Part shown: piece after piece, positions 1-36,390 of the stretch
Layout: the number at the start of each line of letters is the position of its first letter
Numbering within the stretch: the stretch's first letter is position 1
Assembly: GCA_902385045.1 (NCBI GenBank)
Contig: CABMDW010000108.1
Span: forward strand, 1 to 36,717
Reading direction: 5' to 3'
Source: an uncultured archaeon
Lineage (GTDB): Archaea > Micrarchaeota > Micrarchaeia > Norongarragalinales > CABMDW01
DNA: 36,717 nucleotides
The notes under the pieces: generated by a model
The model's database searches: none
Seen by the model: the letters and a program-made list of their open reading frames with translations, nothing else
Told to the model about the DNA's origin: nothing
Position numbers and translations under genes: made by a program

Positions 1-1644
1 GTTCCTTACTTTCTTTCCTAAAGATTCATTAGAATCTTCAACTACCGTTCTAAAACCTAATTGCCTTAAATGAGCACCTAATTTCAATGCTTCATCAGTT
101 TGCTTATCAGAAACAGGAATAATGAATACTTGAACTGGAGACAACCAAAATTCATATTCTGGAGTTGTAGTATTAAGTTTTGCTCCTTCTCGTTCTAATA
201 CAGCATAAACAACTCGTTCTACTGCTCCTGAAATTGAAGCGTGCAAAATTATTGGTTTTGCCTTCTTACCTGAATCATTAATATAATTCAAGTCAAAAGT
301 TTCTCCATTTTCAACGTCAATCTGCACTGTACTCAAAGCAGTTGCTTTCATACTTGAGTCAATGAAATTCATTTCAAATTTAGTGATAAAGTAAGCATAT
401 CTCTTGTCAAACACTTCAAACAAAACAGGCTTCTTGAATTTCAAAACCATTTTCTTATAAAACTCCATGTTTTCTTCTAAAAAGTCTTTCTGAACTCTAA
501 AAGCTAATTCTACTGGAATGTGAAATTCTTCATTCCAAGACCTACATAATTCGTATTGTCTTTCAAATTCTTTCTTTGACTGTTCTAAGTCAGCACACAT
601 AGTATGCATGTCTGGCATCGTAAATGCTCTCAATCTCTTTAGACCAGCCAATTCTCCTGATTGTTCTCTCCTGAAGGAATAATGAGTTAATTCATAAATC
701 TTAAATGGAAGAATCTTATAAGTCAAAACAGAATCATGGGCAATCAAAAATTGTCCGAAACAAGCTGAGAATCTTAAGAAGAATTTTCTCTCATCGCTTT
801 GAATAGTATATTGTCTTGCTGGAAATCTATTCAAATACTTTACTAGAGCAGGATGTGCGTAATCATACATTATTGGAGTTTCAACTCTTGACGCTCCATA
901 ATTTACGCAAATTCTTGATACTTCCTCTTCGATAATTTTCTTCATCACATGACCCTTAGGAAGCCATCTGAAGTGTCCAGAATCTGAAGCAGGTTCATAC
1001 GAAACTAAGCTTTGCTCCTTCATTAGTTTAATGTGAACAGGTTCAGTCGAATAAGCTCTAACTTTCTTTAATTCATAATCATAGAATGCTTTCAAACCAT
1101 AATTGTTTCCAAAATCAAAATTACTGGCTTCAACTAGTTGTCCGTTCTCATTCATGACATATAAAATGCTTTTTACTTCTGATTCTGTTTTCAAACTCTG
1201 AGATTCAATTTCTTTACTTAGAGAAGTATCTTTGGTAATTGTTTTGCTCAATTCGCTTAAAGGATGTCCTAAACAATTTATTGAAAAACTCTTGTACCAA
1301 CCAAAAGGACTTTTGTAGACTTCAAAATTCTTTGACTTTAATAATTCATAAAATTTGGCTAAAAGTTTCTTAGCAACATCAGGTTTTGCTAAATTACTAG
1401 ACAAATGAGCATAAGGATAAAGCAAAATTCTTTGAGCCTTGACTTTATCGAAATCGTCTGAAACAAAACTAACTGCTTTATTCAAAATTTCATCATTATC
1501 TTCACTTTCAACGCTAGTAAAGACGACTAAAACATTTTCAAGATTTTTACTCTTGTTTTCTTCATCAATTTCATCACATGAATTTAAAGCCTTATTTCTA
1601 ACTTCATAGGATGCTTTAGAACAGTGAACCTGTAGTAATTTCAT
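1..1644 (-). CDS. thrS: threonyl-tRNA synthetase, archaeal type with N-terminal editing domain (C-terminal end runs off the window)
   Basis: The minus strand is open from the ATG at 1644-1642 to the window edge. It is absent from the ORF track because it has no stop in the window. My translation begins MKLLQVHCSKASYEVRNKAL..., an archaeal ThrRS editing-domain style N-terminus. Further in it contains HFRWLPKGH and FRREQSGELAGLKRLRAFTMPDMH (class II motif 2). Confidence 0.85.
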   Translation of the reverse strand, partial: MKLLQVHCSKASYEVRNKALNSCDEIDEENKSKNLENVLVVFTSVESEDNDEILNKAVSFVSDDFDKVKAQRILLYPYAHLSSNLAKPDVAKKLLAKFYELLKSKNFEVYKSPFGWYKSFSINCLGHPLSELSKTITKDTSLSKEIESQSLKTESEVKSILYVMNENGQLVEASNFDFGNNYGLKAFYDYELKKVRAYSTEPVHIKLMKEQSLVSYEPASDSGHFRWLPKGHVMKKIIEEEVSRICVNYGASRVETPIMYDYAHPALVKYLNRFPARQYTIQSDERKFFLRFSACFGQFLIAHDSVLTYKILPFKIYELTHYSFRREQSGELAGLKRLRAFTMPDMHTMCADLEQSKKEFERQYELCRSWNEEFHIPVELAFRVQKDFLEENMEFYKKMVLKFKKPVLFEVFDKRYAYFITKFEMNFIDSSMKATALSTVQIDVENGETFDLNYINDSGKKAKPIILHASISGAVERVVYAVLEREGAKLNTTTPEYEFWLSPVQVFIIPVSDKQTDEALKLGAHLRQLGFRTVVEDSNESLGKKVRN

Positions 1645-1724
1645 TTTAATAATTAAGGTGAAAAGACTTTAAGTTACTTTCCGAAAAAGTAAAATGTTAA
1701 AAAGAATTCCTACGTAGACAATTC

Positions 1725-9477: not shown

Positions 9478-11748
9478 TTAATGAACAAAAAACTTTTGTA
9501 AAGGCTTCATTAGCTCGCTAACTTGCATCCAAACTAAAGCCCAAAGCCAAACTAGCAAGACTATTGAAAGAGGTATTTGAACCATCAAAAATCCAAATAA
9601 AGCGAAACAAGTAGCAACCAATTGAGTTATAGTAGTGGCAAGGAGTACTTGCATGCTTGGGAGATACTTGTACCATTTTTCAGAAGTATGGGCTACGTAA
9701 ATCAACATGTGACCCGATACAGTTAGTTTAAGAAAGAAGGCAGTCTGTATCAATGCAATATTCAAGTGTAAAATGTCCTTTAGAATAAAGAAAAATAACA
9801 CACTGTTAATAATTCCAACTACTCCAAAAAGACAACTCAATATTAGTCTGGCTTTAGCGTTTATTTTAGCGGGATTAGTTCCAATCTTAACATGATTATA
9901 TGCAAGCGAAACAATTGGTAGATCATTCAATATGGATAATAAGATCAATTGAATAGGGAGAAGAGGATAAGAACCAGTCATTAAACCTAAAATAACTATG
10001 GTTCCAATTAAACGGAAACTCTCAGAAATTCTATAAACTGAATAACTATAAAGTCTAGCAAAAATTTTCCTTGACTCTAGAATAGCGTCTCTGATAACAG
10101 ATATGCCTGAAGAAAGCAAAACTATATCTGCAGAACTTTTAACAGCATCTAATGCATTACTGACTGCAATCCCAATATTTGCAGCCTTTATAGCAGGCAA
10201 ATCATTAATCCCGTCTCCAGTCATAGCAACTACATGCTCACGCTTAGCAGTAGTTGCCAATTTTAATTTATCATCTGGAAGAACTTCTGCATAAATATCT
10301 TCTTCAGATAAACCAAGATCGTGACCTACTCTTTGAGCTATTGCAACATGGTCTCCAGTAACCATTTTGACTCTAACTCCATTATCTTTAAGAAAATCAA
10401 TAACATTTCTAGCATCAGCTCTTACAGGATCTGAAAGTAAAAGCAAGCCAGCTAAAGTCATGTTCGTATTATCAGCAGTTTTACTGAAAGCTACAGCAAG
10501 GGTTCTAAAACCAGTTTGAGCATAGATTTCTAAATCTTTTTCAAATCTTTTTTTAGTTTGATCATCAGTATTACAAAAACTTAAAATTACTTGAGGAGCA
10601 CCGACTGTTACGCTTATTTTATCATTCCCTAATTTTGCTATTGCGAAACTTCTTTTAGTCTTTGAATCAGCGGAGTTAAAATCTAGTATTTCATAACTAT
10701 TTTCCTGCTTGGTTTCAGTGTATTTTTTGATTATGCATTGACTAATAATACTACGAGAATCTTTTACTGAACTGAGAAAAGCATAGAATAAAACTTCTTG
10801 TTCCTTTGAAGAATAAGGAATTACCTTTTCAATCCCTATTTGATTAGTAGTGAGAGTTCCGGTTTTGTCAGTAAAAAGAATGTCAAATGTAGCTAAATCT
10901 TCAAGAGAAGACAAACGTCTTACTATAACGTTTTCAGATGAAAGTTTCAATACGCCTAAACTTATTATCAAAGTCATTACTGTAGGAAGAGCTATAGGAA
11001 TTCCAGCAATAGCTAAGCTTAGACCTAATTCCAAAATATCAGTAATGGGAGATCCTCGTAAAAAGAAAACAACTGCAACTATTACTATTCCTAATAAACT
11101 GACTATTGAAAGAAATTTTGCAATATCTAAAATATCTTTTTCTAAAACGCTTTTCTTTTCTATTTTTTCTACTGATTGTAAGGTTTTACCAAAATAAGTT
11201 TTAGAGCCGATAAATTCTACTGTAGCCTTGCAAAGACCAGTAACAACGAAAGAACCAGAATAAATTTTGTCATTATTCTTCTTTTCTTTAGGTAAAGATT
11301 CTCCGGTTAAAGTAGCATCACTAATGGTAAAATTTTCGCTCTCAACAACTTCAACGTCAGCAGGAACAATATCTCCCATAGCTAACTCTATAAAATCACC
11401 AGGAACTAAGTCTATAGAATTAACCCATATCCAAGAATTATCTCGAAAGACTTTAACATTAATTTGTAATTTTTCATTAAGCTTTTTTATTGCATTATCT
11501 GCTTTTCTTTCTTGCCAAAAGCTCAAACCAGAATTAACCATTAATAAAACTAGAATAAAGTAAAAATCAAACAATTTTCCAGAAATATAAGATAAAACTG
11601 CTGCAATAAGAAACATTATTTTGATAGGAGTAGGCTTGAATATTTTTAATATTATACTTGGTTTCCTTTCTTCAATCTTATTTTTACCGTATTCTTTACT
11701 TCTATCCTGAACTTCGCTGCTGGTAAGCCCTAGTGTTTTAGTTTCCAC
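9478..11748 (-). CDS. P-type cation-transporting ATPase, type IIIA (plasma-membrane H+-ATPase-like)
   Basis: It has TGES (LTGESLP), the phosphorylation site DKTGTLT, the hinge MTGDGINDLPAIKAANIGIAV, TM4 AGIPIALPTVMTLIISLG and TM6 LSILNDLPIVS. The two TM motifs resemble the plant/fungal/Methanocaldococcus H+-ATPase motifs IPIAMPTV and ILNDG. Confidence 0.85.
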   Translation of the reverse strand: METKTLGLTSSEVQDRSKEYGKNKIEERKPSIILKIFKPTPIKIMFLIAAVLSYISGKLFDFYFILVLLMVNSGLSFWQERKADNAIKKLNEKLQINVKVFRDNSWIWVNSIDLVPGDFIELAMGDIVPADVEVVESENFTISDATLTGESLPKEKKNNDKIYSGSFVVTGLCKATVEFIGSKTYFGKTLQSVEKIEKKSVLEKDILDIAKFLSIVSLLGIVIVAVVFFLRGSPITDILELGLSLAIAGIPIALPTVMTLIISLGVLKLSSENVIVRRLSSLEDLATFDILFTDKTGTLTTNQIGIEKVIPYSSKEQEVLFYAFLSSVKDSRSIISQCIIKKYTETKQENSYEILDFNSADSKTKRSFAIAKLGNDKISVTVGAPQVILSFCNTDDQTKKRFEKDLEIYAQTGFRTLAVAFSKTADNTNMTLAGLLLLSDPVRADARNVIDFLKDNGVRVKMVTGDHVAIAQRVGHDLGLSEEDIYAEVLPDDKLKLATTAKREHVVAMTGDGINDLPAIKAANIGIAVSNALDAVKSSADIVLLSSGISVIRDAILESRKIFARLYSYSVYRISESFRLIGTIVILGLMTGSYPLLPIQLILLSILNDLPIVSLAYNHVKIGTNPAKINAKARLILSCLFGVVGIINSVLFFFILKDILHLNIALIQTAFFLKLTVSGHMLIYVAHTSEKWYKYLPSMQVLLATTITQLVATCFALFGFLMVQIPLSIVLLVWLWALVWMQVSELMKPLQKFFVH

Positions 11749-16457: not shown

Positions 16458-16886
16458 ATGTTTGAAGAAAAACTTAAAGAGAGATTTGACTTGGCTACTA
16501 GTGTCACTTTTCAAGAATCTAAAAACATTTCAGTCTACAATTGGTTTTATTATAAAGAAGGATTTTCACCGAGACTAGTGAAAACATTCGTAAGAGAATA
16601 TTCTCTTGAAGGATTAGGTTTAGATGTTTTTTGTGGAACCGGAACCACTAATTTGGCATTATGTGAAATGGGTTTGAAAAATGTTGGGTTTGACTTCAAT
16701 CCATTACTAGCACTTGTAGCAGAAGTTAAAACTACAGAATTTGATTACGATAAAACAAGTTTACTAATTAAAAAAGTGATAAACGAAAAACCTAAAATTG
16801 ACTTTAATTGGAAGACGCAATTAGTTGAAGAAACAAAATACTTTACAAAACAAAATTACGATGAAATACTTGAATTGAGAGAATAA
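16458..16886 (+). CDS. amino-methyltransferase (N4-C/N6-A type), N-terminal fragment carrying SAM-binding motif I
   Basis: It carries LDVFCGTGTTNLA (FxGxG motif I). It ends at the TAA at 16884-16886, and the next ORF continues in the same reading frame. Confidence 0.65.
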   Translation: MFEEKLKERFDLATSVTFQESKNISVYNWFYYKEGFSPRLVKTFVREYSLEGLGLDVFCGTGTTNLALCEMGLKNVGFDFNPLLALVAEVKTTEFDYDKTSLLIKKVINEKPKIDFNWKTQLVEETKYFTKQNYDEILELRE

Positions 16887-16907
16887 ATATTCTCTCTTGA
16901 TGAAGGA

Positions 16908-17612
16908 ATGGAAAAAAACTTTCTAAAAGTGGTACTAGCGTCAATGATAACTCCTTGCTCTTTCATTCACAAAGACGGAGGAGTGTTGAAAATAGAAAAG
17001 AGAAGCGTTCCTCCAGCTAAAAAATACTTTGAAAGAAAAGCAAAAGAAATGTTAAAAGAAGCCAAAAAAAGAATTCTTAAAGCTGAAAGCCAAATATTTC
17101 AAGTAGATTCCCGAGATTTTGAATTAAATAAAAAAGTAGATTTCATTATAACCAGCCCGCCTTACTTGAACAATGTAGACTATTCAAAAGTTTACGCTTT
17201 TGAAACCTCGCTAATATTTCCAAAAGAGTACCATGAATTCAGCAAAAATACTTTGAGAAGTCACGCTTTCTCTTCAGACAAAGACAATGAAGAATTTGAC
17301 TTGGATCAAATAAAGAAATTACTTGAAACAGACAGGGTTCCGCTTCAAGCCTTAAATTACTTAAGCGATTTAAAGAAAGTGATTAAGAATTGCTATAAGT
17401 ATACTAACAAAAATGCGAAAATATTTTTCAACGTAGCAAATGGCGTTTATGAAGAATCAAGACTAACTCTAGATAATGCACTAGCATTCCTAATGGAAGA
17501 AGAAGGTTTTGAAATTAATGAAATACTAGTCGCTAGAAAAATTCCTGTTTACTTGAAATCAGGAAATCGATTTACAACTAGAGAAAGCATAGTAGTAGCA
17601 GAAAAAAATTGA
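16908..17612 (+). CDS. amino-methyltransferase, C-terminal fragment carrying catalytic motif IV (SPPY)
   Basis: It carries FIITSPPYLNNVDYSKVY (motif IV, S/D/N-PP-Y). It is in the same frame as 16458..16886, separated only by a TAA plus 7 sense codons. Confidence 0.65.
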   Translation: MEKNFLKVVLASMITPCSFIHKDGGVLKIEKRSVPPAKKYFERKAKEMLKEAKKRILKAESQIFQVDSRDFELNKKVDFIITSPPYLNNVDYSKVYAFETSLIFPKEYHEFSKNTLRSHAFSSDKDNEEFDLDQIKKLLETDRVPLQALNYLSDLKKVIKNCYKYTNKNAKIFFNVANGVYEESRLTLDNALAFLMEEEGFEINEILVARKIPVYLKSGNRFTTRESIVVAEKN

Positions 17613-30513: not shown

Positions 30514-30738
30514 TCACTCTTCTTCAATTAAGGTATTTACTCTAGTAATTATAGTCAAATCCCTTAATAACGAATTCGATATTGCACGAAGTTTGGCTAA
30601 TGAAGGTTGTTTTATGGTGAAAAATAATTTGTTTTTAAGAACTGCATTATATTCTTTCTTGTCTTTTAACGCGTTGAAAATGCGTTTGTTTTCATCGCCA
30701 TCAAAATCCAATACGAAAGAACATGTAAATTCAAGCAT
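30514..30738 (-). CDS. KEOPS subunit Pcc1-like small protein
   Basis: LEFTCSFVLDF...FFTIKQPSLAKLRAISNSLLRDLTIITRV resembles the Pcc1 pattern (LRAsxNSfLr). Pcc1 commonly neighbours pfdB in archaea. I prefer the Met at 30738 over the track start at 30774. Confidence 0.5.
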   Translation of the reverse strand: MLEFTCSFVLDFDGDENKRIFNALKDKKEYNAVLKNKLFFTIKQPSLAKLRAISNSLLRDLTIITRVNTLIEEE

Positions 30739-31753
30739 TTTTCTCCAACTCTTCAATTCTTGATAAGAGTGCATTATACTTTTGAATTAAAGTATTACGC
30801 AGGTCTTCAGAAATTTCACTTCTAATAAAAGCCTGTTCTACAAAATCAATTTGAACTTCAATTAATTCTTTGACTTTAGAAGCATGATCTCCTAATTCTA
30901 ATTCAGGGTGATTCAAAACTAATTCGTTTAATCTTCTTTCAACGCTTTTTGCAAGAATCTTATGTTGTTTTGTAATATCCTTGAATATTTTTTCACTAAT
31001 CAAACCACGATCATAATCTCTCTTCAAATAACTTGAAGCAAAACTCATTGCCCTAGATTCCGTTACTAGACTCAAATATTCGTTTTCCAAAGGATTTTCT
31101 CTGATTCCCAATAATTTTGAGCTCGCAAGTTTTGCAGTGAAAACCGAAATGAGAATAGTGAAGAAAATGACTATAATTGTGATAGAGAAAATGCTTTGAG
31201 CTTCTGCCAAAGAAAACCAGCCTCTATTTACGGCAAAAGCATAAGAACCGGTTATCACTCCGGATAAGACTATTGAAGCTAAAGCTGCAGAAACTGCTCC
31301 ACGGGGATTTCCAATCCAAGAAATAAACATTTTTTCTTTGAAAGAAAAATCTTTGTCAAACAACATACTAAGCCAAATGGTCAAAGGTCGAATAAAGAAG
31401 CAGAATGCTATTGCAATCAAAAATCCTGGAAATAAATTGGAATAAAGTAAACTTAAATTAACTTCAGATCCTAGAACTAAAAAGACTAATGCAGTTGCAA
31501 TGAAATTCAAGTTTTCCCAAAAACCAAGAGTCCTGTGCCTGCTGATTGCACTAACGTTCTTGCCTCTGACATAACTACCGAAAACCAAGGCAGTGAACAC
31601 TACGGAAATAACTCCGGATGCACTAATGCCCCAAGCGTTAAGGCCTTCAGCAATTGCATATGAAGACATCATGAAAGCCAGTGAAGAAAATAATAGGTCA
31701 TCATCAACTTTGAATTGACGTAAAAGGGCGTTACCCAAAAGTCCTACAGTCAA
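30731..31753 (-). CDS. Na+/H+ antiporter (CPA1, NhaP-type), C-terminal part including cytoplasmic tail
   Basis: 340 aa with about 6-7 TM followed by a soluble helical domain. It is in the same frame as 31766..32350. The track start is a TTG with no SD-like element. Confidence 0.65.
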   Translation of the reverse strand: MTVGLLGNALLRQFKVDDDLLFSSLAFMMSSYAIAEGLNAWGISASGVISVVFTALVFGSYVRGKNVSAISRHRTLGFWENLNFIATALVFLVLGSEVNLSLLYSNLFPGFLIAIAFCFFIRPLTIWLSMLFDKDFSFKEKMFISWIGNPRGAVSAALASIVLSGVITGSYAFAVNRGWFSLAEAQSIFSITIIVIFFTILISVFTAKLASSKLLGIRENPLENEYLSLVTESRAMSFASSYLKRDYDRGLISEKIFKDITKQHKILAKSVERRLNELVLNHPELELGDHASKVKELIEVQIDFVEQAFIRSEISEDLRNTLIQKYNALLSRIEELEKNA

Positions 31754-31765
31754 ACCGACGAGACA

Positions 31766-32350
31766 TTAAAAGAAGATAATGCTAACAAATTGGGTTGAAA
31801 CTGAAGAAAAGGAAATTACTCCTCCCGCTAGTAATGTGGTTAAAACCAAGAAAATAGTAAGAGAAGAAGCATCGTTGAAAGCAGTTTCACTTTCAATAAT
31901 GCTTGAAATCTTTTTTTCAATTCTCAATTTTCTGAGTAATGGGAGAATTGAAGCAGGATCAGTGGAAGCTAAAATAGCTCCTAAGAGCAATGCAGCCAGC
32001 CAGCTGAAGCCGAGGAAAAAGTAAGCTGCTAAAGCTACTCCTGAAATCGTGAAGACTACTGCAACCGTATTAATTGACAAAACCGTAGACAATTTTTTCA
32101 ATAATTGTTTGCTGTCTGCTCTTGCTCCGTCGTTGAACAAGATTATTGGAACGCTTATGACGGCCAAAAAACCTAGGGAAATTCCTATTTCTAGGGGCTT
32201 GAAAATTTTTAAAACTTCATTACCGAAAATAAAACCTGTTAACAATAATGCAACGAATTCAGGCCAGTTGAAAAATTTGGCTATGCGCGCCACTAGAATT
32301 CCTGCAATCAAAACGAAAATAATTTGTCCAAGAAAAATGTCAAAAGCCAA
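31766..32350 (-). CDS. Na+/H+ antiporter (CPA1, NhaP-type), N-terminal part
   Basis: 194 aa and about 5-6 TM. It has ASTDPASILPLL and ESETAFNDASSLTIF (the ES..ND ion-binding motif). It ends at the TAA at 31766-31768. Confidence 0.7.
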   Translation of the reverse strand: MAFDIFLGQIIFVLIAGILVARIAKFFNWPEFVALLLTGFIFGNEVLKIFKPLEIGISLGFLAVISVPIILFNDGARADSKQLLKKLSTVLSINTVAVVFTISGVALAAYFFLGFSWLAALLLGAILASTDPASILPLLRKLRIEKKISSIIESETAFNDASSLTIFLVLTTLLAGGVISFSSVSTQFVSIIFF

Positions 32351-32412: not shown

Positions 32413-33612
32413 TTAATCTCCTAGAATTCGTTTTTCAATTATGACTCTAATTTTATTCGGATCAAAGCCTGGACAAATTAAAGTAGCGTGTCCTCTGACT
32501 CCTTTTCCGGATTCAATTGTGGTTATGAGTCCTAAAGATTCCAAGTCATGAAGATATTCTCTATACCATCGTGAACTTCTTGGTTCAACTTTGGTTTTTC
32601 TGCAAATGCTCTTATATTTTTCGTAAACGTGACCTGAAAAATAATATTTGTCTCCATTTTCTTCAACTAGTTTACTATAGGCTTCAGAATCAGAGAGGCA
32701 TAAAGCATACAAAACTAATTGCTGATGCTGAGGGAGTCCGGAAACTAATTCGAAAGACTTGTCTTCGTCTGCTTTCTTTCTTGCATCTTCAACTTCTTTT
32801 TCAGTAACTACTTTAAGTTTTTTAGAATCAGCTAGTTCTCCGGCCCACAATAATAAAGATAACGCGTATCTTACGTCTCCATTTTCTGAAGCTGCAATTG
32901 CTGATGCTAAATTCAAGGCTCCGTGAAGTATTGCTCCATCATTAAAAGATGCTTTAATCCTATCTTCAAGGATTCCGGATAATTGTGAAGCATTGTAAGA
33001 ATGAAAAACCAATTCTTTTTCGCATAATGAACTTTTGCTTCTGGCATCTAATTTTTTCTTGAAGTCGATTCTGTTGGAAATTCCTATTACGGAAATGCTG
33101 CCTTTCTTCAAGTCATCATTTGTTCTTGTAAGCGTGTATACTAAATCGTCTAAATCTTTTACGGCGTCAATTTCGTCTAATACTACAATCAAATTTTTTC
33201 CTTGATCATCATCTTCAATCCAGTCTAGAAGTTTCTCGTAAATAGTGGCCATTGAGTGTCCGGTTCTTGGCAATTCAATGATGAAATCGCCGACCAGTTT
33301 TTGTATTACTTTATAGCGTGAATCATAAACTCTGCAATTCATGTACGTGGTAAAGACTCGGGTATTTTCTTCGGCTTTTATTTTTTGCAAAACTAGTTTT
33401 ACTGCAGCAGTTTTTCCGCAACCAGAATTGCCGTAAATAAATAAATTGTTTGGCTTTACTCCTTTGAAAGCTGGAGCAATTAATTCCATTAAAGTTCTTA
33501 ATTCATGATCACGATACAACATTTCAGGCGGATAATAGTGCGGACTCAGAACATTCTTATTCTTAAACACGCTTGCCTTGTTTAAAATATCAGAAAAAGA
33601 GAGCGAAGACAT
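32413..33612 (-). CDS. cdc6: ORC1-type DNA replication protein (Orc1/Cdc6)
   Basis: 399 aa. It has Walker A GNSGCGKTA, Walker B IVVLDEID, the sensor region ISVIGISN and a C-terminal winged helix. Confidence 0.92.
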   Translation of the reverse strand: MSSLSFSDILNKASVFKNKNVLSPHYYPPEMLYRDHELRTLMELIAPAFKGVKPNNLFIYGNSGCGKTAAVKLVLQKIKAEENTRVFTTYMNCRVYDSRYKVIQKLVGDFIIELPRTGHSMATIYEKLLDWIEDDDQGKNLIVVLDEIDAVKDLDDLVYTLTRTNDDLKKGSISVIGISNRIDFKKKLDARSKSSLCEKELVFHSYNASQLSGILEDRIKASFNDGAILHGALNLASAIAASENGDVRYALSLLLWAGELADSKKLKVVTEKEVEDARKKADEDKSFELVSGLPQHQQLVLYALCLSDSEAYSKLVEENGDKYYFSGHVYEKYKSICRKTKVEPRSSRWYREYLHDLESLGLITTIESGKGVRGHATLICPGFDPNKIRVIIEKRILGD

Positions 33613-33707
33613 AAAAAACCTAGTTTAAATTAATTAAGTTAAATACGAAGAGCAACTATTAAAAACAAAGGTCATACATTCATTTAAAAGACAATTAAAA
33701 ATAAGTC

Positions 33708-33747
33708 TAACTAGTAAGCTTTTTTAAGACAGGCTTAGTACTAGTTA
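33708..33747. repeat. imperfect inverted repeat TAACTAGTAAGC ... GCTTA(GTA)CTAGTTA in the cdc6/sepF divergent spacer
   Basis: TAACTAGTA (33708-33716) and TACTAGTTA (33739-33747) are exact reverse complements. TAAGC/GCTTA extends the arms with a 3-nt bulge. Confidence 0.5.
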
Positions 33748-33793
33748 CAAGTGATTTTAAACTGGAAATTTACTCTATTAGGTGAATAATTTT

Positions 33794-33853
33794 ATGGGAA
33801 TATTTGATAAATTGGGAAAGGCATTAGGAATAGGAAAAGAATTGAGTGTTTAA
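33794..33853 (+). CDS. 19-codon ORF encoding a SepF-type amphipathic N-terminal peptide (MGIFDKLGKALGIGKELSV), in frame with the sepF core
   Basis: ATG at 33794 with GGTG at 33781-33784. A TAA at 33851-33853 ends it, and the same frame continues into 33893..34153. Confidence 0.45.
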   Translation: MGIFDKLGKALGIGKELSV

Positions 33854-33892
33854 GAATTCATTACTTCTGAAGAAGCTGAAAATGTCGATATT

Positions 33893-34153
33893 ATGCACCA
33901 AGCTGCTGATTTTTACGTTAAACCAATCAAACTACAAACTGATGAAGATTTGAAAATTATTGAAGAAGAATTAAGTAACAAAAACATAATATTATTAAAC
34001 ATTAGTCCAGTCTCTAGAAATCCAGTTAAACTAAAAGCATACATTGGAAATATTAAAAATTTTGTAACTAGGATAAATGGAGATTTGGCAAGATTGGATG
34101 AAGATAAATTGCTGATTACTCCAATGAATGTAAAAATAGTGAAAAAAAGATAA
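33893..34153 (+). CDS. sepF: cell division protein SepF (DUF552 core domain)
   Basis: FYVKPIKLQTDEDLKIIEEELSNKNIILLNISPVSRNPVKLKAYIGNIKNFVTRINGDLARLDEDKLLITPMNVKIV matches the SepF core pattern. Confidence 0.8.
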   Translation: MHQAADFYVKPIKLQTDEDLKIIEEELSNKNIILLNISPVSRNPVKLKAYIGNIKNFVTRINGDLARLDEDKLLITPMNVKIVKKR

Positions 34154-34212
34154 CAATCATGTTTAAAAAGCAAAGGATATTAATAAAATAAAAATAATGG
34201 TGACTCGAAAAA

Positions 34213-34401
34213 ATGGATGAAAAAGGACAGGGAGCTTTTGAATATTTATTACTAATTGGAGGAGCAATCTTATTCGTAATACTAGTTATAGCTATAGTAC
34301 AATCCTCACTAGGAACACAACAGAATAATGCACTAAACGGATCAAACAAGATCGGAGACGTCACAAACCAAACATACAATAGTGTTGCGGCTACAAATTA
34401 A
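34213..34401 (+). CDS. archaeal type IV pilin-like protein (class III signal peptide, DUF361-like)
   Basis: MDEKGQGAFEYLLLIGGAILFVILVIAIV has a short charged leader, a G/Q cleavage context, and then a hydrophobic helix. Confidence 0.75.
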   Translation: MDEKGQGAFEYLLLIGGAILFVILVIAIVQSSLGTQQNNALNGSNKIGDVTNQTYNSVAATN

Positions 34402-34406
34402 GGCTT

Positions 34407-34577
34407 ATGGATCAAAAAGGGCAAATTACTACGGAATACGTTCTACTGGTAATGATAGGTTTAGTCATACTCGTAGTAGCAGTATCATTTGTAGGAAATA
34501 TGAAAACTATTTTTGATTCAATGCTTCAAAAAACTAATTTGGAAAGATCAACTGCAATTACTATGCTTGGAAGATAA
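34407..34577 (+). CDS. archaeal type IV pilin-like protein (56 aa), not in the ORF track
   Basis: ATG at 34407 and TAA at 34575-34577. My translation is MDQKGQITTEYVLLVMIGLVILVVAVSFVGNMKTIFDSMLQKTNLERSTAITMLGR. The leader architecture matches that of the preceding gene. Confidence 0.6.
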   Translation: MDQKGQITTEYVLLVMIGLVILVVAVSFVGNMKTIFDSMLQKTNLERSTAITMLGR

Positions 34578-34607
34578 GAATATAGTCTACAAAATAATGA
34601 ATTAATC

Positions 34608-35564
34608 ATGTTAGACCTAATAGCAATTATTTTACTAGGAGTATTGGGTCTTACTGCAGCTTATTTTGATTTGAAGAAAAGAATTGTTCCAAATTACTTG
34701 TCGTTACCATTATTGTTTGCATCGATATTACTTCTTATAATCAGCAATCAATTCAAAGATCTTGCTTGGATGTCTTTATTCATAATAATTGACTATGCAT
34801 TATATTCAATGGGAGTTTGGGCTGGTGGAGACTTTAAACTAACTGTGGGGATAATCGGAATCCTATTGTTTTACTCGGAAAGAAGTTCTTTCACAGAATT
34901 CATTCAGCTAGTGGGAATATTTTTTGCAATTTCATTTGGAATAGTAATACTAATGTCTGTTTTGAAAAGAATTATGATAATTAAAGAAAATAGAAAAGAA
35001 ATTATTTTGAAAATATTGAAAAATTCTGCAAAAACTCTAGTGCTCACTCAAAGCGTTTTGTTTCTGGCAGCCAGAATGGAATTATACCAGCAAATATTAC
35101 TTGGAATAAGCGTTCTAGTAATTAGTTTATTTGTTGACTTCCCGATTTTAATTACGGGAATAGTTTTTGTCATAGCATTAATAGTGGAACCATTACAGAC
35201 TATAGAAAAATCAGTTTATTCCATACCTCTCGTGTTGTTTATAACGCTCTGTTTGAACGTCATAAAAATGATTCCATTGAAAAAGAAAGTTCTTTCAAAA
35301 GAATTGGAAGAAGGAATGATACTGGAAGGAGAGTATTATCTTGAAAACAATAAGTTAAAACATGAAACAAGTTTGATTAAAACAATAACTGAATCGAAAG
35401 ACAATATCATATACTCAGACAAGAAGGCCAGGGGTTTAACTGAAGAAGAAATAGGTAAACTCAGAAAATACGGATTTGAAAGCGGTTTTCAAAAAATAAC
35501 TATTCGACTATCGCCTTTTTTAATTATAGCAAGTTTAATAATGTTAATTATAAAAATAGCGTGA
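34608..35564 (+). CDS. archaeal prepilin/preflagellin peptidase (A24 family, FlaK/PibD/EppA-like) with long C-terminal extension
   Basis: The first catalytic Asp context is LTAAYFDLKKRIVPN and the second is VWAGGDFKLTVG (GxGD type). At 318 aa it has extra TM spans and a charged soluble segment before a final TM. Confidence 0.75.
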   Translation: MLDLIAIILLGVLGLTAAYFDLKKRIVPNYLSLPLLFASILLLIISNQFKDLAWMSLFIIIDYALYSMGVWAGGDFKLTVGIIGILLFYSERSSFTEFIQLVGIFFAISFGIVILMSVLKRIMIIKENRKEIILKILKNSAKTLVLTQSVLFLAARMELYQQILLGISVLVISLFVDFPILITGIVFVIALIVEPLQTIEKSVYSIPLVLFITLCLNVIKMIPLKKKVLSKELEEGMILEGEYYLENNKLKHETSLIKTITESKDNIIYSDKKARGLTEEEIGKLRKYGFESGFQKITIRLSPFLIIASLIMLIIKIA

Positions 35565-35570
35565 AAAAAG

Positions 35571-35984
35571 TTGATAGCACAAGTTTCACTTGAGTTCTTT
35601 TTTGCAATGATAATAAGCATCGGGCTAGTCACCTATTTGGCCACTCAAATATACGCGAATGTAAGCGATTTAAGCAGGCTAAGAGACGGTGGTTCAGCTA
35701 AAACTTCATTGGATGCAGTAGCCTTGGGAGTAAACACTCTCATAACAGCAGGAAATAACAGTAACATCATAATGGAACAATACTTTCCAAGATCTTCATG
35801 CTTATACATTACTACTGATTCTAAACACTTGTACTGCGATGTAGGTTTAGATTACAATATTAACAGCACGGTACTCTTCACTTCAAATGCAGATGCAATT
35901 TACGTAAATGACAGTTGCAGAAGTAACGGCTGGATTACGTTAAACTTAACTAGAAATAATTCTGGAGTGTTTATAACTTGTTAA
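35571..35984 (+). CDS. pilin-like protein with class III signal peptide-like N-terminus
   Basis: The N-terminus is (M)IAQVSLEFFFAMIISIGLVTYL, with a TTG start and a very short leader. Several sequons (NVS, NNS, NST, NDS, NLT) and 4 Cys are present. Confidence 0.55.
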   Translation: MIAQVSLEFFFAMIISIGLVTYLATQIYANVSDLSRLRDGGSAKTSLDAVALGVNTLITAGNNSNIIMEQYFPRSSCLYITTDSKHLYCDVGLDYNINSTVLFTSNADAIYVNDSCRSNGWITLNLTRNNSGVFITC

Positions 35985-35994
35985 AGGAATTAAA

Positions 35995-36390
35995 ATGAAA
36001 GGACAAGTATCCTTTGAATACATTTTCGTAATAGCAGTCATAGTAAGCGGAGCCTACATTTTTTTACTGACTGCAGCTAAAGAAATGGAATTAAGCGCTG
36101 CACTTACTTCAGTAAGACAGAGTATTAACGATTACGAATCAATAAATGGATACCGGGTAACAATAAGAGAGATTAATTACAGTCAACCGCAATCAAATAA
36201 CGTGGTAATAACAGTGAGGGTTTTGATTAATGAAACTTATAGTGCCAGTGCTGATCCGAATGCGGTTAGCGCCATAACTTATTACAGTCTCATTGGATTA
36301 GCAAATACTTTTGCCAAATCTCCATTTCCAGATACTAACAGCACTTATTATCAATCCAGTTTGTTTAATTACAGTATACAAGTGGTTTAA
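35995..36390 (+). CDS. pilin-like protein with class III signal peptide
   Basis: MKGQVSFEYIFVIAVIVSGAYIFLL is a classical archaeal prepilin leader (K-G|Q) followed by a hydrophobic helix. Confidence 0.7.
   Translation: MKGQVSFEYIFVIAVIVSGAYIFLLTAAKEMELSAALTSVRQSINDYESINGYRVTIREINYSQPQSNNVVITVRVLINETYSASADPNAVSAITYYSLIGLANTFAKSPFPDTNSTYYQSSLFNYSIQVV

What the first reader, a model, noticed from the sequence alone, without database searches (positions are those of the whole stretch)
33794..34153. sepF: the membrane-targeting N-terminal helix is separated from the FtsZ-binding core by an in-frame TAA
The ATG at 33794 is preceded by GGTG, as are several other genes in this window. It encodes MGIFDKLGKALGIGKELSV and then a TAA. 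The same frame runs on as EFITSEEAENVDIMHQAADFYVKPIKLQ..., into a clear SepF (DUF552) core.

The 19-residue peptide looks like the amphipathic membrane-targeting sequence found at the N-terminus of bacterial and archaeal SepF. The internal ATG at 33893 has no GGTG-like element upstream. Taken literally, the cell would make a membrane helix without a core, and at best a core without an anchor. SepF is the FtsZ membrane anchor in FtsZ-using archaea, so a broken copy is unexpected.
Basis: partly seen in the sequence, partly recalled or inferred. Interest (0 to 1): 0.65.

Follow-up and report, generated by a model that had tools for sequence, protein, structure and literature searches.

The report
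Premature stop codon in archaeal sepF
A normal-looking cell-division gene (sepF) of a tiny Micrarchaeota archaeon carries one premature TAA stop. Two other conserved genes on the same contig have the same defect, so it is most likely a very recent or artefactual base change, not a special way of making SepF.

Summary
ATG 33794 opens a 19-codon ORF (MGIFDKLGKALGIGKELSV), TAA follows at 33851-33853, and the same frame continues into a complete SepF core ending at 34153.

The peptide is the true SepF N-terminus. It is 19/19 identical to the closest relative, and residues 1-12 resemble the tested Haloferax volcanii targeting sequence MGIMSKILGGGG. The stop lies in the disordered linker.

The stop is not conserved. 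All 80 species-representative loci, 21 metagenome loci and 35 protein clusters have one uninterrupted ~120-aa ORF, with Glu, Asp or rarely Asn at that position.

The stop is also not specific to sepF. The contig has two more in-frame TAAs, in a Na+/H+ exchanger (31766-31768, minus strand) and a DPANN-wide methyltransferase (16884-16886). That is 3 of 34 genes compared with a syntenic relative, with no frameshifts.

All three stops are best explained as G:C>T:A transversions. Both halves of each gene show dN/dS of 0-0.08, like intact neighbours. TAA remains the main true terminator, and no RNA structure follows the stops.

I conclude these are unselected, very recent changes, most likely assembly or DNA-damage artefacts or a non-representative allele. 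Real nonsense alleles, with or without UAA suppression, remain possible. Reads were not available.

The parts
33781..33784 (+). SD-like GGTG, 9 nt upstream of the sepF start codon
   Evidence: 13 of 49 ORF starts in the window have a comparable element.
33794..33829 (+). sepF codons 1-12 (MGIFDKLGKALG), the membrane-targeting amphipathic helix
   Evidence: Hydrophobic moment is 0.50, against a shuffle mean of 0.26, and 3% of shuffles reach the observed value. The motif is conserved in all relatives. It resembles the tested H. volcanii targeting sequence MGIMSKILGGGG (PMC8187382). The AF2 model of the 88%-identical relative has a helix at residues 5-10.
33830..33850 (+). sepF codons 13-19, start of the flexible linker
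   Evidence: AF2 pLDDT is below 50 for residues 12-38 of the relative. These alignment columns are variable.
33851..33853 (+). In-frame TAA at codon 20
   Evidence: Relatives have GAG 38, GAA 16, GAC 14, GAT 2 and AAC 2 at this position. The closest relative has GAC.
33854..33910 (+). sepF codons 21-39, the acidic remainder of the linker
33893..33895 (+). Internal ATG (codon 34). It is the only plausible restart and would give an 86-aa core without an anchor.
   Evidence: no SD-like element upstream. The record's gene call starts here (P0003).
33911..34150 (+). SepF core (codons 40-119), the FtsZ-binding domain
   Evidence: Pfam PF04472 covers residues 42-115. PDB 3ZIG aligns to residues 40-117. 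AF2 pLDDT is 81-92. dN/dS is 0.07 against the relative.
34151..34153 (+). Natural stop TAA of sepF, one codon earlier than in the close relatives (KKR* versus KKRQ*)
31766..31768 (-). Second in-frame TAA of the contig, inside the Na+/H+ exchanger gene 30731-32350
   Evidence: Pfam PF00999 is split over two ORFs. The frame is continuous across the stop. The relative has an intact 539-aa gene with TCT (Ser) at this position.
16884..16886 (+). Third in-frame TAA of the contig, inside a 384-aa SAM-dependent methyltransferase gene 16458-17612
   Evidence: The relative P0037 is 384 aa, 85% identical and covers 100% of the query. The other full-length homologues listed are about 350-420 aa. The relative's codon is TCA.
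32413..33612 (-). orc1/cdc6, divergent neighbour of sepF, intact
   Evidence: A match to the window's Orc1/Cdc6 is present in 62 relatives' sepF loci.

Best explanation
The locus is an ordinary Micrarchaeota sepF. It has a membrane-targeting helix (residues 1-12), a disordered acidic linker (13-39) and an FtsZ-binding core (40-119).

Codon 20, which is Glu or Asp in relatives, reads TAA. The most parsimonious path is GAA>TAA, a G>T change.

The stop is not programmed. It is a very recent change that selection has not yet acted on. It is one of three G:C>T:A-type in-frame TAAs on this contig.

My best single reading is that the three stops belong to the sequence record and not to the working genome. 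They could be consensus errors from oxidatively damaged or low-coverage reads, or a non-representative allele picked by the assembler. On this reading the organism makes a normal 119-aa SepF that tethers FtsZ to the membrane.

Shown: the anatomy, the non-conservation of the stop, the three stops, the absence of decay, and the substitution class.
Inferred: that the cause is artefactual and not biological.
For: 1. No relative has the stop. None was found in 80 species-representative loci. All 21 metagenome loci align to the query as one continuous segment. All 35 protein clusters from other assemblies are uninterrupted.
2. There are three in-frame stops in 34 genes compared with the syntenic relative GCA_041643055.1. 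All are TAA and there are no frameshifts.
3. dN/dS on both sides of each stop is 0-0.08. Nine intact control genes give 0.03-0.09, at dS of about 1.
4. The window branch is not longer than the relative's, and its nonsynonymous/synonymous ratio is not raised. Window-specific versus relative-specific amino-acid changes are 68 versus 64. The interrupted methyltransferase has 12 window-specific changes against 28 in the relative. SepF has only 3 conservative singleton changes.
5. All three stops are most simply G:C>T:A. Under uniform mutation rates only 29% of nonsense paths belong to that class, so P(3/3) is 0.025. On the polarised branches it is the second-rarest of the six classes, at 13 of 312 window-branch changes. 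It accounts for 0 of 10 changes at ancestral G/C fourfold sites. G>T is the classic oxidative-damage artefact (my own knowledge).
6. TAA is still the main true terminator: 20 of 34 genes in the window against 17 of 34 in the relative.
7. No unusual RNA structure follows any of the three stops (z = -0.47, -1.32, +0.89).
Against: - No reads, coverage values or independent assembly of this species could be examined. The window's proteins occur only in this NCBI record, and its own contig is masked in the look-up.
- Three nonsense errors imply roughly 20 G:C>T:A errors in 36.7 kb, about 0.2% of G/C sites. That is high for a short-read consensus.
- The polarised comparison shows no measurable G:C>T:A excess on the window branch (13 versus 18), although its power is low.
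- The precursor codons for sepF and nhaP are inferred, because the relatives differ at two positions of those codons.
Confidence: 0.5

Rival explanations
1. The nonsense alleles are real and unsuppressed. On this reading sepF is truly broken in this population. The cell makes a free 19-aa amphipathic peptide and at best a small amount of anchor-less 86-aa core by re-initiation at ATG 33893. The Na+/H+ exchanger and the methyltransferase are also inactivated. This would be a snapshot of very recent gene loss in a drifting DPANN lineage, possibly after a short 8-oxoG-type mutator episode.
For: The stops are in the deposited sequence, and the record's own gene calls start after them (P0003 86 aa, P0039 234 aa, P0160 194 aa). 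The single substitution class fits a mutator burst as well as an artefact. The 86-aa ORF contains the whole core.
Against: SepF is the only known FtsZ anchor in archaea and is essential in H. volcanii (PMC8178401, PMC8187382). All 80 related species keep it intact, and each of the 80 kept loci comes from a different assembly. Losing three strongly constrained genes (dN/dS 0.05-0.08) out of 34, with no other lesion and no frameshift, is unlikely. There is no SD before 33893.
Confidence: 0.2
2. The in-frame UAAs are real and are rescued by translational suppression. On this reading the lineage carries an ochre-suppressor tRNA or a leaky aRF1, so the ribosome inserts an amino acid at UAA often enough to make full-length SepF, antiporter and methyltransferase. 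In-frame TAAs at tolerant positions are then nearly neutral.
For: There are three in-frame stops of the same kind (TAA only) in 34 genes, with full purifying selection on both sides. All three lie at variable or tolerant positions. These are the disordered SepF linker, a variable methyltransferase column with S/A/E/L/V/M/N, and a Ser in a membrane segment of the antiporter.
Against: TAA terminates 20 of 34 orthologous genes, no fewer than in the relative (17 of 34). Back-up stops are no closer: the median distance to the next in-frame stop is 7.5 codons against 8. There is no shared sequence context and no downstream structure. The only tRNA in the window is Leu(TAG). My literature searches found no report of UAA suppression or recoding in archaea. 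P(all three are TAA) by chance is about 0.12.
Confidence: 0.13
3. The stops are a cloning artefact. On this reading the 36.7-kb sequence is a fosmid-sized insert propagated in E. coli. Knock-out mutations were selected in the genes that harm the host: an FtsZ-binding membrane-targeted protein, a foreign methyltransferase and a membrane antiporter.
For: The contig length of 36,717 bp is in the fosmid insert range, and both ends cut genes. All three interrupted genes could plausibly be toxic in E. coli (inference).
Against: Nothing in the data shows a clone origin. Related records are all metagenome-assembled genomes (MAGs). E. coli selection usually also yields IS insertions, deletions and frameshifts, and none is seen.
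Confidence: 0.05
4. The stop is programmed, sepF-specific recoding or regulation. On this reading the TAA is a regulatory device that sets the ratio of free targeting peptide, core-only SepF and full-length SepF.
For: The stop sits exactly between the two functional modules, in a linker that tolerates any residue. In H. volcanii the targeting peptide alone, and SepF without it, both localise to midcell when native SepF is present (PMC8187382).
Against: The stop is not conserved in any of more than 130 relatives, including three at 82-88% identity. There is no downstream structure. Identical lesions occur in two unrelated genes.
Confidence: 0.02

Closest known systems
Archaeal SepF (Methanobrevibacter smithii MsSepF; Haloferax volcanii SepF), Pfam PF04472
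   Same: The three-part architecture is the same: an N-terminal amphipathic membrane-targeting sequence (MsSepF residues 1-12; H. volcanii MGIMSKILGGGG versus MGIFDKLGKALG here), a flexible linker, and a C-terminal FtsZ-binding core. The core aligns to archaeal SepF-like structures 3ZIG and 3ZIE.
   Different: The reading frame is interrupted by TAA at codon 20. The protein is shorter than MsSepF (119 versus 149 aa) because the linker is shorter. FtsZ binding was not tested here.
Nonsense-interrupted genes, or 'internal stop' pseudogenes, in draft genomes and MAGs
   Same: A single base substitution creates a premature stop in a gene that is intact in all relatives, and the annotation calls only the downstream fragment.
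   Different: There is no sign of decay. dN/dS is 0-0.08 on both sides of the stop, and there are no frameshifts or further lesions. Three such events with one substitution class sit on a single 36.7-kb contig.
Oxidative-damage (8-oxoG) G>T / C>A sequencing artefacts
   Same: All three stops are most simply G:C>T:A changes. That class is otherwise among the rarest on this lineage's branch.
   Different: Such artefacts normally sit at low allele fraction and reach a consensus only at very low coverage. Coverage and read-orientation bias could not be checked.
Stop-codon reassignment or suppression (UAG>Pyl in some methanogens; UGA recoding in some bacteria and phages)
   Same: In-frame stop codons lie inside genes that are otherwise under purifying selection.
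   Different: The codon here is UAA, and I know of no prokaryotic reassignment of it. It remains the main terminator in this contig. The stops are not conserved in relatives, and the replaced residues differ (Asp/Glu versus Ser).

Membership tests
SepF (PF04472) FtsZ membrane anchor | C-terminal SepF/DUF552 core domain | tested here: met
   Pfam E 7.5e-10, 39.3 bits against a cut-off of 27, residues 42-115. PDB 3ZIG E 3.5e-8.
SepF (PF04472) FtsZ membrane anchor | N-terminal amphipathic membrane-targeting sequence | tested here: met
   Hydrophobic moment 0.50 for residues 1-12. The motif is conserved in relatives. It resembles the tested H. volcanii targeting sequence. Membrane binding itself was not tested.
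SepF (PF04472) FtsZ membrane anchor | Flexible linker joining the targeting sequence and the core in one polypeptide | tested here: not met
   The linker is present (pLDDT below 50 for residues 12-38 in the relative's model). However, the frame is cut by TAA at codon 20.
SepF (PF04472) FtsZ membrane anchor | Co-occurrence with ftsZ in the genome, and a single sepF copy | not testable with these tools
   Pfam scans of the window's ORFs found no FtsZ/tubulin domain. The rest of the genome is not available. Each of the 80 kept relatives' loci comes from a different assembly.
SepF (PF04472) FtsZ membrane anchor | Binding of the FtsZ C-terminal peptide | not testable with these tools
   This needs biochemistry.
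Programmed stop-codon read-through or recoding site | The stop codon is conserved at the same position in related genomes | tested here: not met
   No in-frame stop was found in any of the 80 genome loci. Of these, 72 had an ungapped codon 20 for the tally (E 54, D 16, N 2). The 21 metagenome loci each align as one continuous segment. The 35 protein clusters from other assemblies are uninterrupted.
Programmed stop-codon read-through or recoding site | Stimulatory context or downstream RNA structure | tested here: not met
   The 80 nt after each stop fold with z = -0.47, -1.32 and +0.89. There is no shared flanking motif.
Programmed stop-codon read-through or recoding site | Coding constraint continues past the stop | tested here: met
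   Downstream dN/dS is 0.07, 0.058 and 0.076. This is equally expected for a very recent or artefactual stop.
Genome-wide TAA reassignment or ochre suppression | TAA avoided at true gene ends, or back-up stops enriched | tested here: not met
   TAA ends 20 of 34 genes against 17 of 34 in the relative. The median distance to the next in-frame stop is 7.5 codons against 8.
Genome-wide TAA reassignment or ochre suppression | A tRNA with an anticodon reading UAA | not testable with these tools
   The only tRNA in the window is Leu(TAG). The genome is not available.
Decaying pseudogene | Relaxed selection and accumulation of further lesions | tested here: not met
   dN/dS is 0-0.08 on both sides of each stop. 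There are no frameshifts. The window branch is not accelerated.

The most novel reading that the evidence does not exclude
This Micrarchaeota lineage tolerates in-frame UAA codons because it suppresses UAA at a useful rate, through an ochre-suppressor tRNA or a weakened aRF1. On this reading sepF, the Na+/H+ exchanger and the methyltransferase are all made full-length, even though UAA is still the commonest terminator. It would be the first natural UAA suppression system described in an archaeon.
Probability: 0.12. Interest if true: 0.75.

Novelty: already known. Interest (0 to 1): 0.25.

Why it matters
If the stops are artefacts, the value is practical. This record's gene calls are wrong: an 86-aa 'SepF', a split antiporter and a split methyltransferase. 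SepF in this organism is then an ordinary full-length FtsZ anchor. The G:C>T:A signature would flag a quality problem that may affect the whole assembly.

If the stops are real, a streamlined DPANN archaeon has just lost its only known FtsZ membrane anchor. Less likely, it reads through UAA. Either would interest people working on archaeal cell division and on genetic-code flexibility. A read-level check is cheap and decides the matter.

Tried and rejected
- **Genome-wide recoding of TAA.** Rejected. The window is densely coded under table 11, and TAA ends 29 of 46 ORFs once the three in-frame TAAs are set aside. Usage is no lower than in the relative.
- **Conserved recoding site.** Rejected by 80 genome loci, 21 metagenome loci and 35 protein clusters.
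- **Downstream stimulatory RNA.** None found.
- **Independent copy of the same species to serve as a read-level proxy.** None found.
  - The window's proteins form singleton 90% clusters found only in this NCBI record.
  - Exact look-ups of three window proteins returned nothing.
  - The best hit in the GTDB representatives is 67% identical and in JGI metagenomes 57%.
- **Excess G:C>T:A or a longer or relaxed window branch, using outgroup L106.** No excess was seen, but the power is too low to detect about 20 extra events.
- **PDB search to confirm that the methyltransferase is one gene.** Uninformative. The homologue search resolved it.
- **NhaP orthologues in the sepF-flanking loci of distant relatives.** None found, so the residue at that stop is known only from the close relative.
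- **Further in-frame stops hidden as short N-terminal fragments.** None found. All the relative's proteins that match the window align from residue 1 or 2, except one that aligns from residue 7. Regions without relative coverage (1-5586, 9478-11748, 20354-23787) were checked only by Pfam coverage.

Full report
**1. What is in the sequence**

The window is a 33% GC, densely coded archaeal contig. At 33781-33784 there is a GGTG, and ATG follows at 33794. The next 19 codons read MGIFDKLGKALGIGKELSV, then TAA at 33851-33853. The same frame continues for 99 more codons to TAA at 34151-34153.

The read-through product matches Pfam SepF (PF04472) over residues 42-115, with E 7.5e-10 and a score above the curated cut-off. 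Residues 40-117 align to the solved archaeal SepF-like cores 3ZIG and 3ZIE.

The internal ATG at 33893 is codon 34. It has no SD-like element, whereas 13 of 49 ORF starts in the window do, including 33794.

**2. The upstream peptide is the real N-terminus of SepF**

A search of 5.8 billion proteins returned 36 clusters. One is the window's own 86-aa ORF call. The other 35 are single ORFs of about 120 aa from Micrarchaeota or 'Marsarchaeota' MAGs, nearly all covering the whole query, and the 21 that were aligned begin with MG[IV/L][FL]..[LI].K.[LF]G.

The closest is P0001, at 88% identity, on an 876,621-bp contig of GCA_041643055.1. It is 19/19 identical over the mini-ORF. The 7 nucleotide differences there are all synonymous.

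Residues 1-12 have a hydrophobic moment of 0.50, against a shuffle mean of 0.26, and 3% of shuffles reach the observed value. They closely resemble MGIMSKILGGGG, the H. volcanii peptide shown experimentally to target GFP to the division site (PMC8187382). In M. smithii SepF the membrane-binding helix is residues 1-12, followed by a flexible linker and the core (PMC8178401).

An AlphaFold2 model of P0001 gives a helix at residues 5-10. It has pLDDT below 50 for residues 12-38 and a confident core from residue 40. The TAA at codon 20 therefore lies in the disordered linker.

**3. The stop is not conserved**

Eighty species-representative genomes (GTDB) have an uninterrupted sepF. In the 72 ungapped matches the codon at this position is GAG 38, GAA 16, GAC 14, GAT 2 and AAC 2. 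The 21 JGI metagenome loci each align to the query as one continuous segment, most of them over residues 1-119. The three closest proteins all have Asp there.

Each of the 80 kept loci comes from a different assembly. This agrees with the literature statement that archaea have one SepF co-occurring with FtsZ.

**4. The stop is not unique to sepF**

This was the main new finding.

- **Na+/H+ exchanger.** The gene two positions upstream is split by an in-frame TAA at 31766-31768 on the minus strand. Pfam PF00999 positions 4-182 fall in one ORF and 197-368 in the next, and the frame is continuous across the stop (...FVSIIFF*CLVGL...). The relative has an intact 539-aa gene with TCT (Ser) at this position.
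- **Methyltransferase.** A SAM-dependent methyltransferase at 16458-17612 is split by TAA at 16884-16886. Motif I (DVFCGTGTT) lies upstream of the stop and motif IV (SPPY) downstream. The relative P0037 is 384 aa, 85% identical and covers 100% of the query. The other full-length homologues listed, many of them from DPANN archaea, are about 350-420 aa. The relative's codon is TCA.

I fetched two syntenic stretches of the relative (L001 and L104) and compared 34 orthologous genes. Three carry an in-frame stop, all TAA, and none has a frameshift.

**5. No decay in the interrupted genes**

Nei-Gojobori dN/dS against the relative, upstream and downstream of each stop:

| Gene | Upstream | Downstream |
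|---|---|---|
| sepF | 0.00 | 0.07 |
| nhaP | 0.049 | 0.058 |
| methyltransferase | 0.076 | 0.076 |

Nine intact control genes give 0.03-0.09. dS is about 1 in the three interrupted genes and 0.5-1.7 in the controls.

With L106 as an outgroup over 4.5 kb, the window branch is no longer than the relative's. Window-specific versus relative-specific amino-acid changes are 68 versus 64. The nonsynonymous/synonymous counts are 109/203 versus 102/180. The interrupted methyltransferase changed less on the window branch (12) than on the relative's (28).

SepF has only three conservative singleton changes: M23I, T71S and A74S. The stops are therefore very young relative to the divergence, or not real, or translated through.

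**6. Substitution class**

The simplest paths are GAA>TAA for sepF and TCA>TAA for nhaP and the methyltransferase. All three are G:C>T:A transversions.

With the window's codon usage and uniform mutation rates, only 29% of nonsense-creating changes belong to this class, so P(3/3) is 0.025. Weighting transitions lowers it further. On the polarised branches G:C>T:A is the second-rarest of the six classes, at 13 of 312 window-branch changes. It accounts for none of the 10 changes at ancestral G/C fourfold sites.

The fourfold sample is small, and the sepF and nhaP precursor codons are inferred. Even so, the stops do not look like draws from this lineage's usual spectrum.

G>T is the hallmark of 8-oxoguanine, both as a library-preparation artefact and as a repair-deficient mutator signature (my own knowledge).

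**7. Tests of recoding**

- TAA ends 29 of 46 ORFs in the window once the three in-frame TAAs are set aside.
- Among orthologues it ends 20 of 34 genes here and 17 of 34 in the relative. Back-up stops are no closer.
- sepF itself ends in TAA, followed by TAA TAA ten codons later.
- The three stops share no flanking motif: GTT TAA GAA, TTT TAA TGT and GAA TAA ATA.
- The 80 nt downstream of each stop fold no better than shuffles (z = -0.47, -1.32, +0.89).
- The only tRNA in the window is Leu(TAG).
- Literature searches found no report of UAA suppression in archaea or DPANN.

**8. What could not be done**

The window's proteins occur only in this NCBI record, as singleton 90% clusters. Exact look-ups are masked, and no conspecific assembly exists in the collections searched.

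There is therefore no read-level or independent confirmation, no coverage value and no access to the rest of the genome. I could not look for ftsZ, a second sepF, a suppressor tRNA or aRF1.

**9. Verdict**

This is a canonical sepF with a non-conserved, very recent nonsense substitution in its linker. It is one of three same-class in-frame TAAs on the contig.

| Reading | Weight |
|---|---|
| The stops belong to the record and not the working genome (damage, low-coverage consensus error, or a non-representative allele) | ~0.5 |
| Real, unsuppressed nonsense alleles | ~0.2 |
| Real alleles rescued by UAA suppression | ~0.13 |
| Clone-selected mutations | ~0.05 |
| sepF-specific programmed recoding | ~0.02 |

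The implication of a biologically meaningful split SepF is not supported by the comparative evidence.

Noticed in passing
window 30731-32350 (-), stop at 31766-31768: The Na+/H+ exchanger (PF00999) is interrupted by an in-frame TAA inside a hydrophobic segment (FVSIIFF*CLVGL). The syntenic relative has an intact 539-aa gene with Ser (TCT) at this position.
   Followed up: yes
window 16458-17612 (+), stop at 16884-16886: A 384-aa SAM-dependent methyltransferase is interrupted by an in-frame TAA. Motif I (DVFCGTGTT) comes before motif IV (SPPY), and the protein gives weak PF01555 and PF01170 hits. The family is conserved across DPANN archaea (Micrarchaeota, Aenigmarchaeota, Nanoarchaeota, Altiarchaeota, Diapherotrites), which suggests a housekeeping methylase and not a restriction-modification enzyme.
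   Followed up: partly
window 32413-33793; loci L003-L103: orc1/cdc6 lies divergently next to sepF, 181 bp apart. A match to the window's Orc1/Cdc6 is present in 62 of about 100 relatives' sepF loci. In the loci inspected it lies just upstream of sepF on the opposite strand. The intergenic region has a 22-nt imperfect inverted repeat (33695-33716 / 33739-33760). It could be an origin-recognition or promoter element.
   Followed up: partly
window 34148-34156: The sepF natural stop is one codon earlier than in the three closest relatives. The window reads AGA TAA CAA (KKR*), and the relatives read AGA CAA TAA (KKRQ*).
   Followed up: no
window 34213-36390: Downstream of sepF lies a cluster of small genes with class III (type IV pilin-like) signal peptides (34213-34401, 34407-34577, 35995-36390). 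A prepilin peptidase of the A24 family (34608-35564) sits among them. The arrangement is syntenic in the relative.
   Followed up: no
window 9478-11748 (-); L104 3822-3979 and 5170-6475: Gene content differs from the close relative. The window has a P-type cation ATPase between topoisomerase VI B and MarC that the relative lacks at that position. The relative has a UMPH-1-like gene, an extra ORF, an MscL gene and a DDE transposase that are absent from the window.
   Followed up: no
window 1-1647 (-): A threonyl-tRNA synthetase-like ORF runs off the start of the contig, with about 550 codons open and no internal stop. I named it from its sequence motifs only and ran no family search.
   Followed up: no
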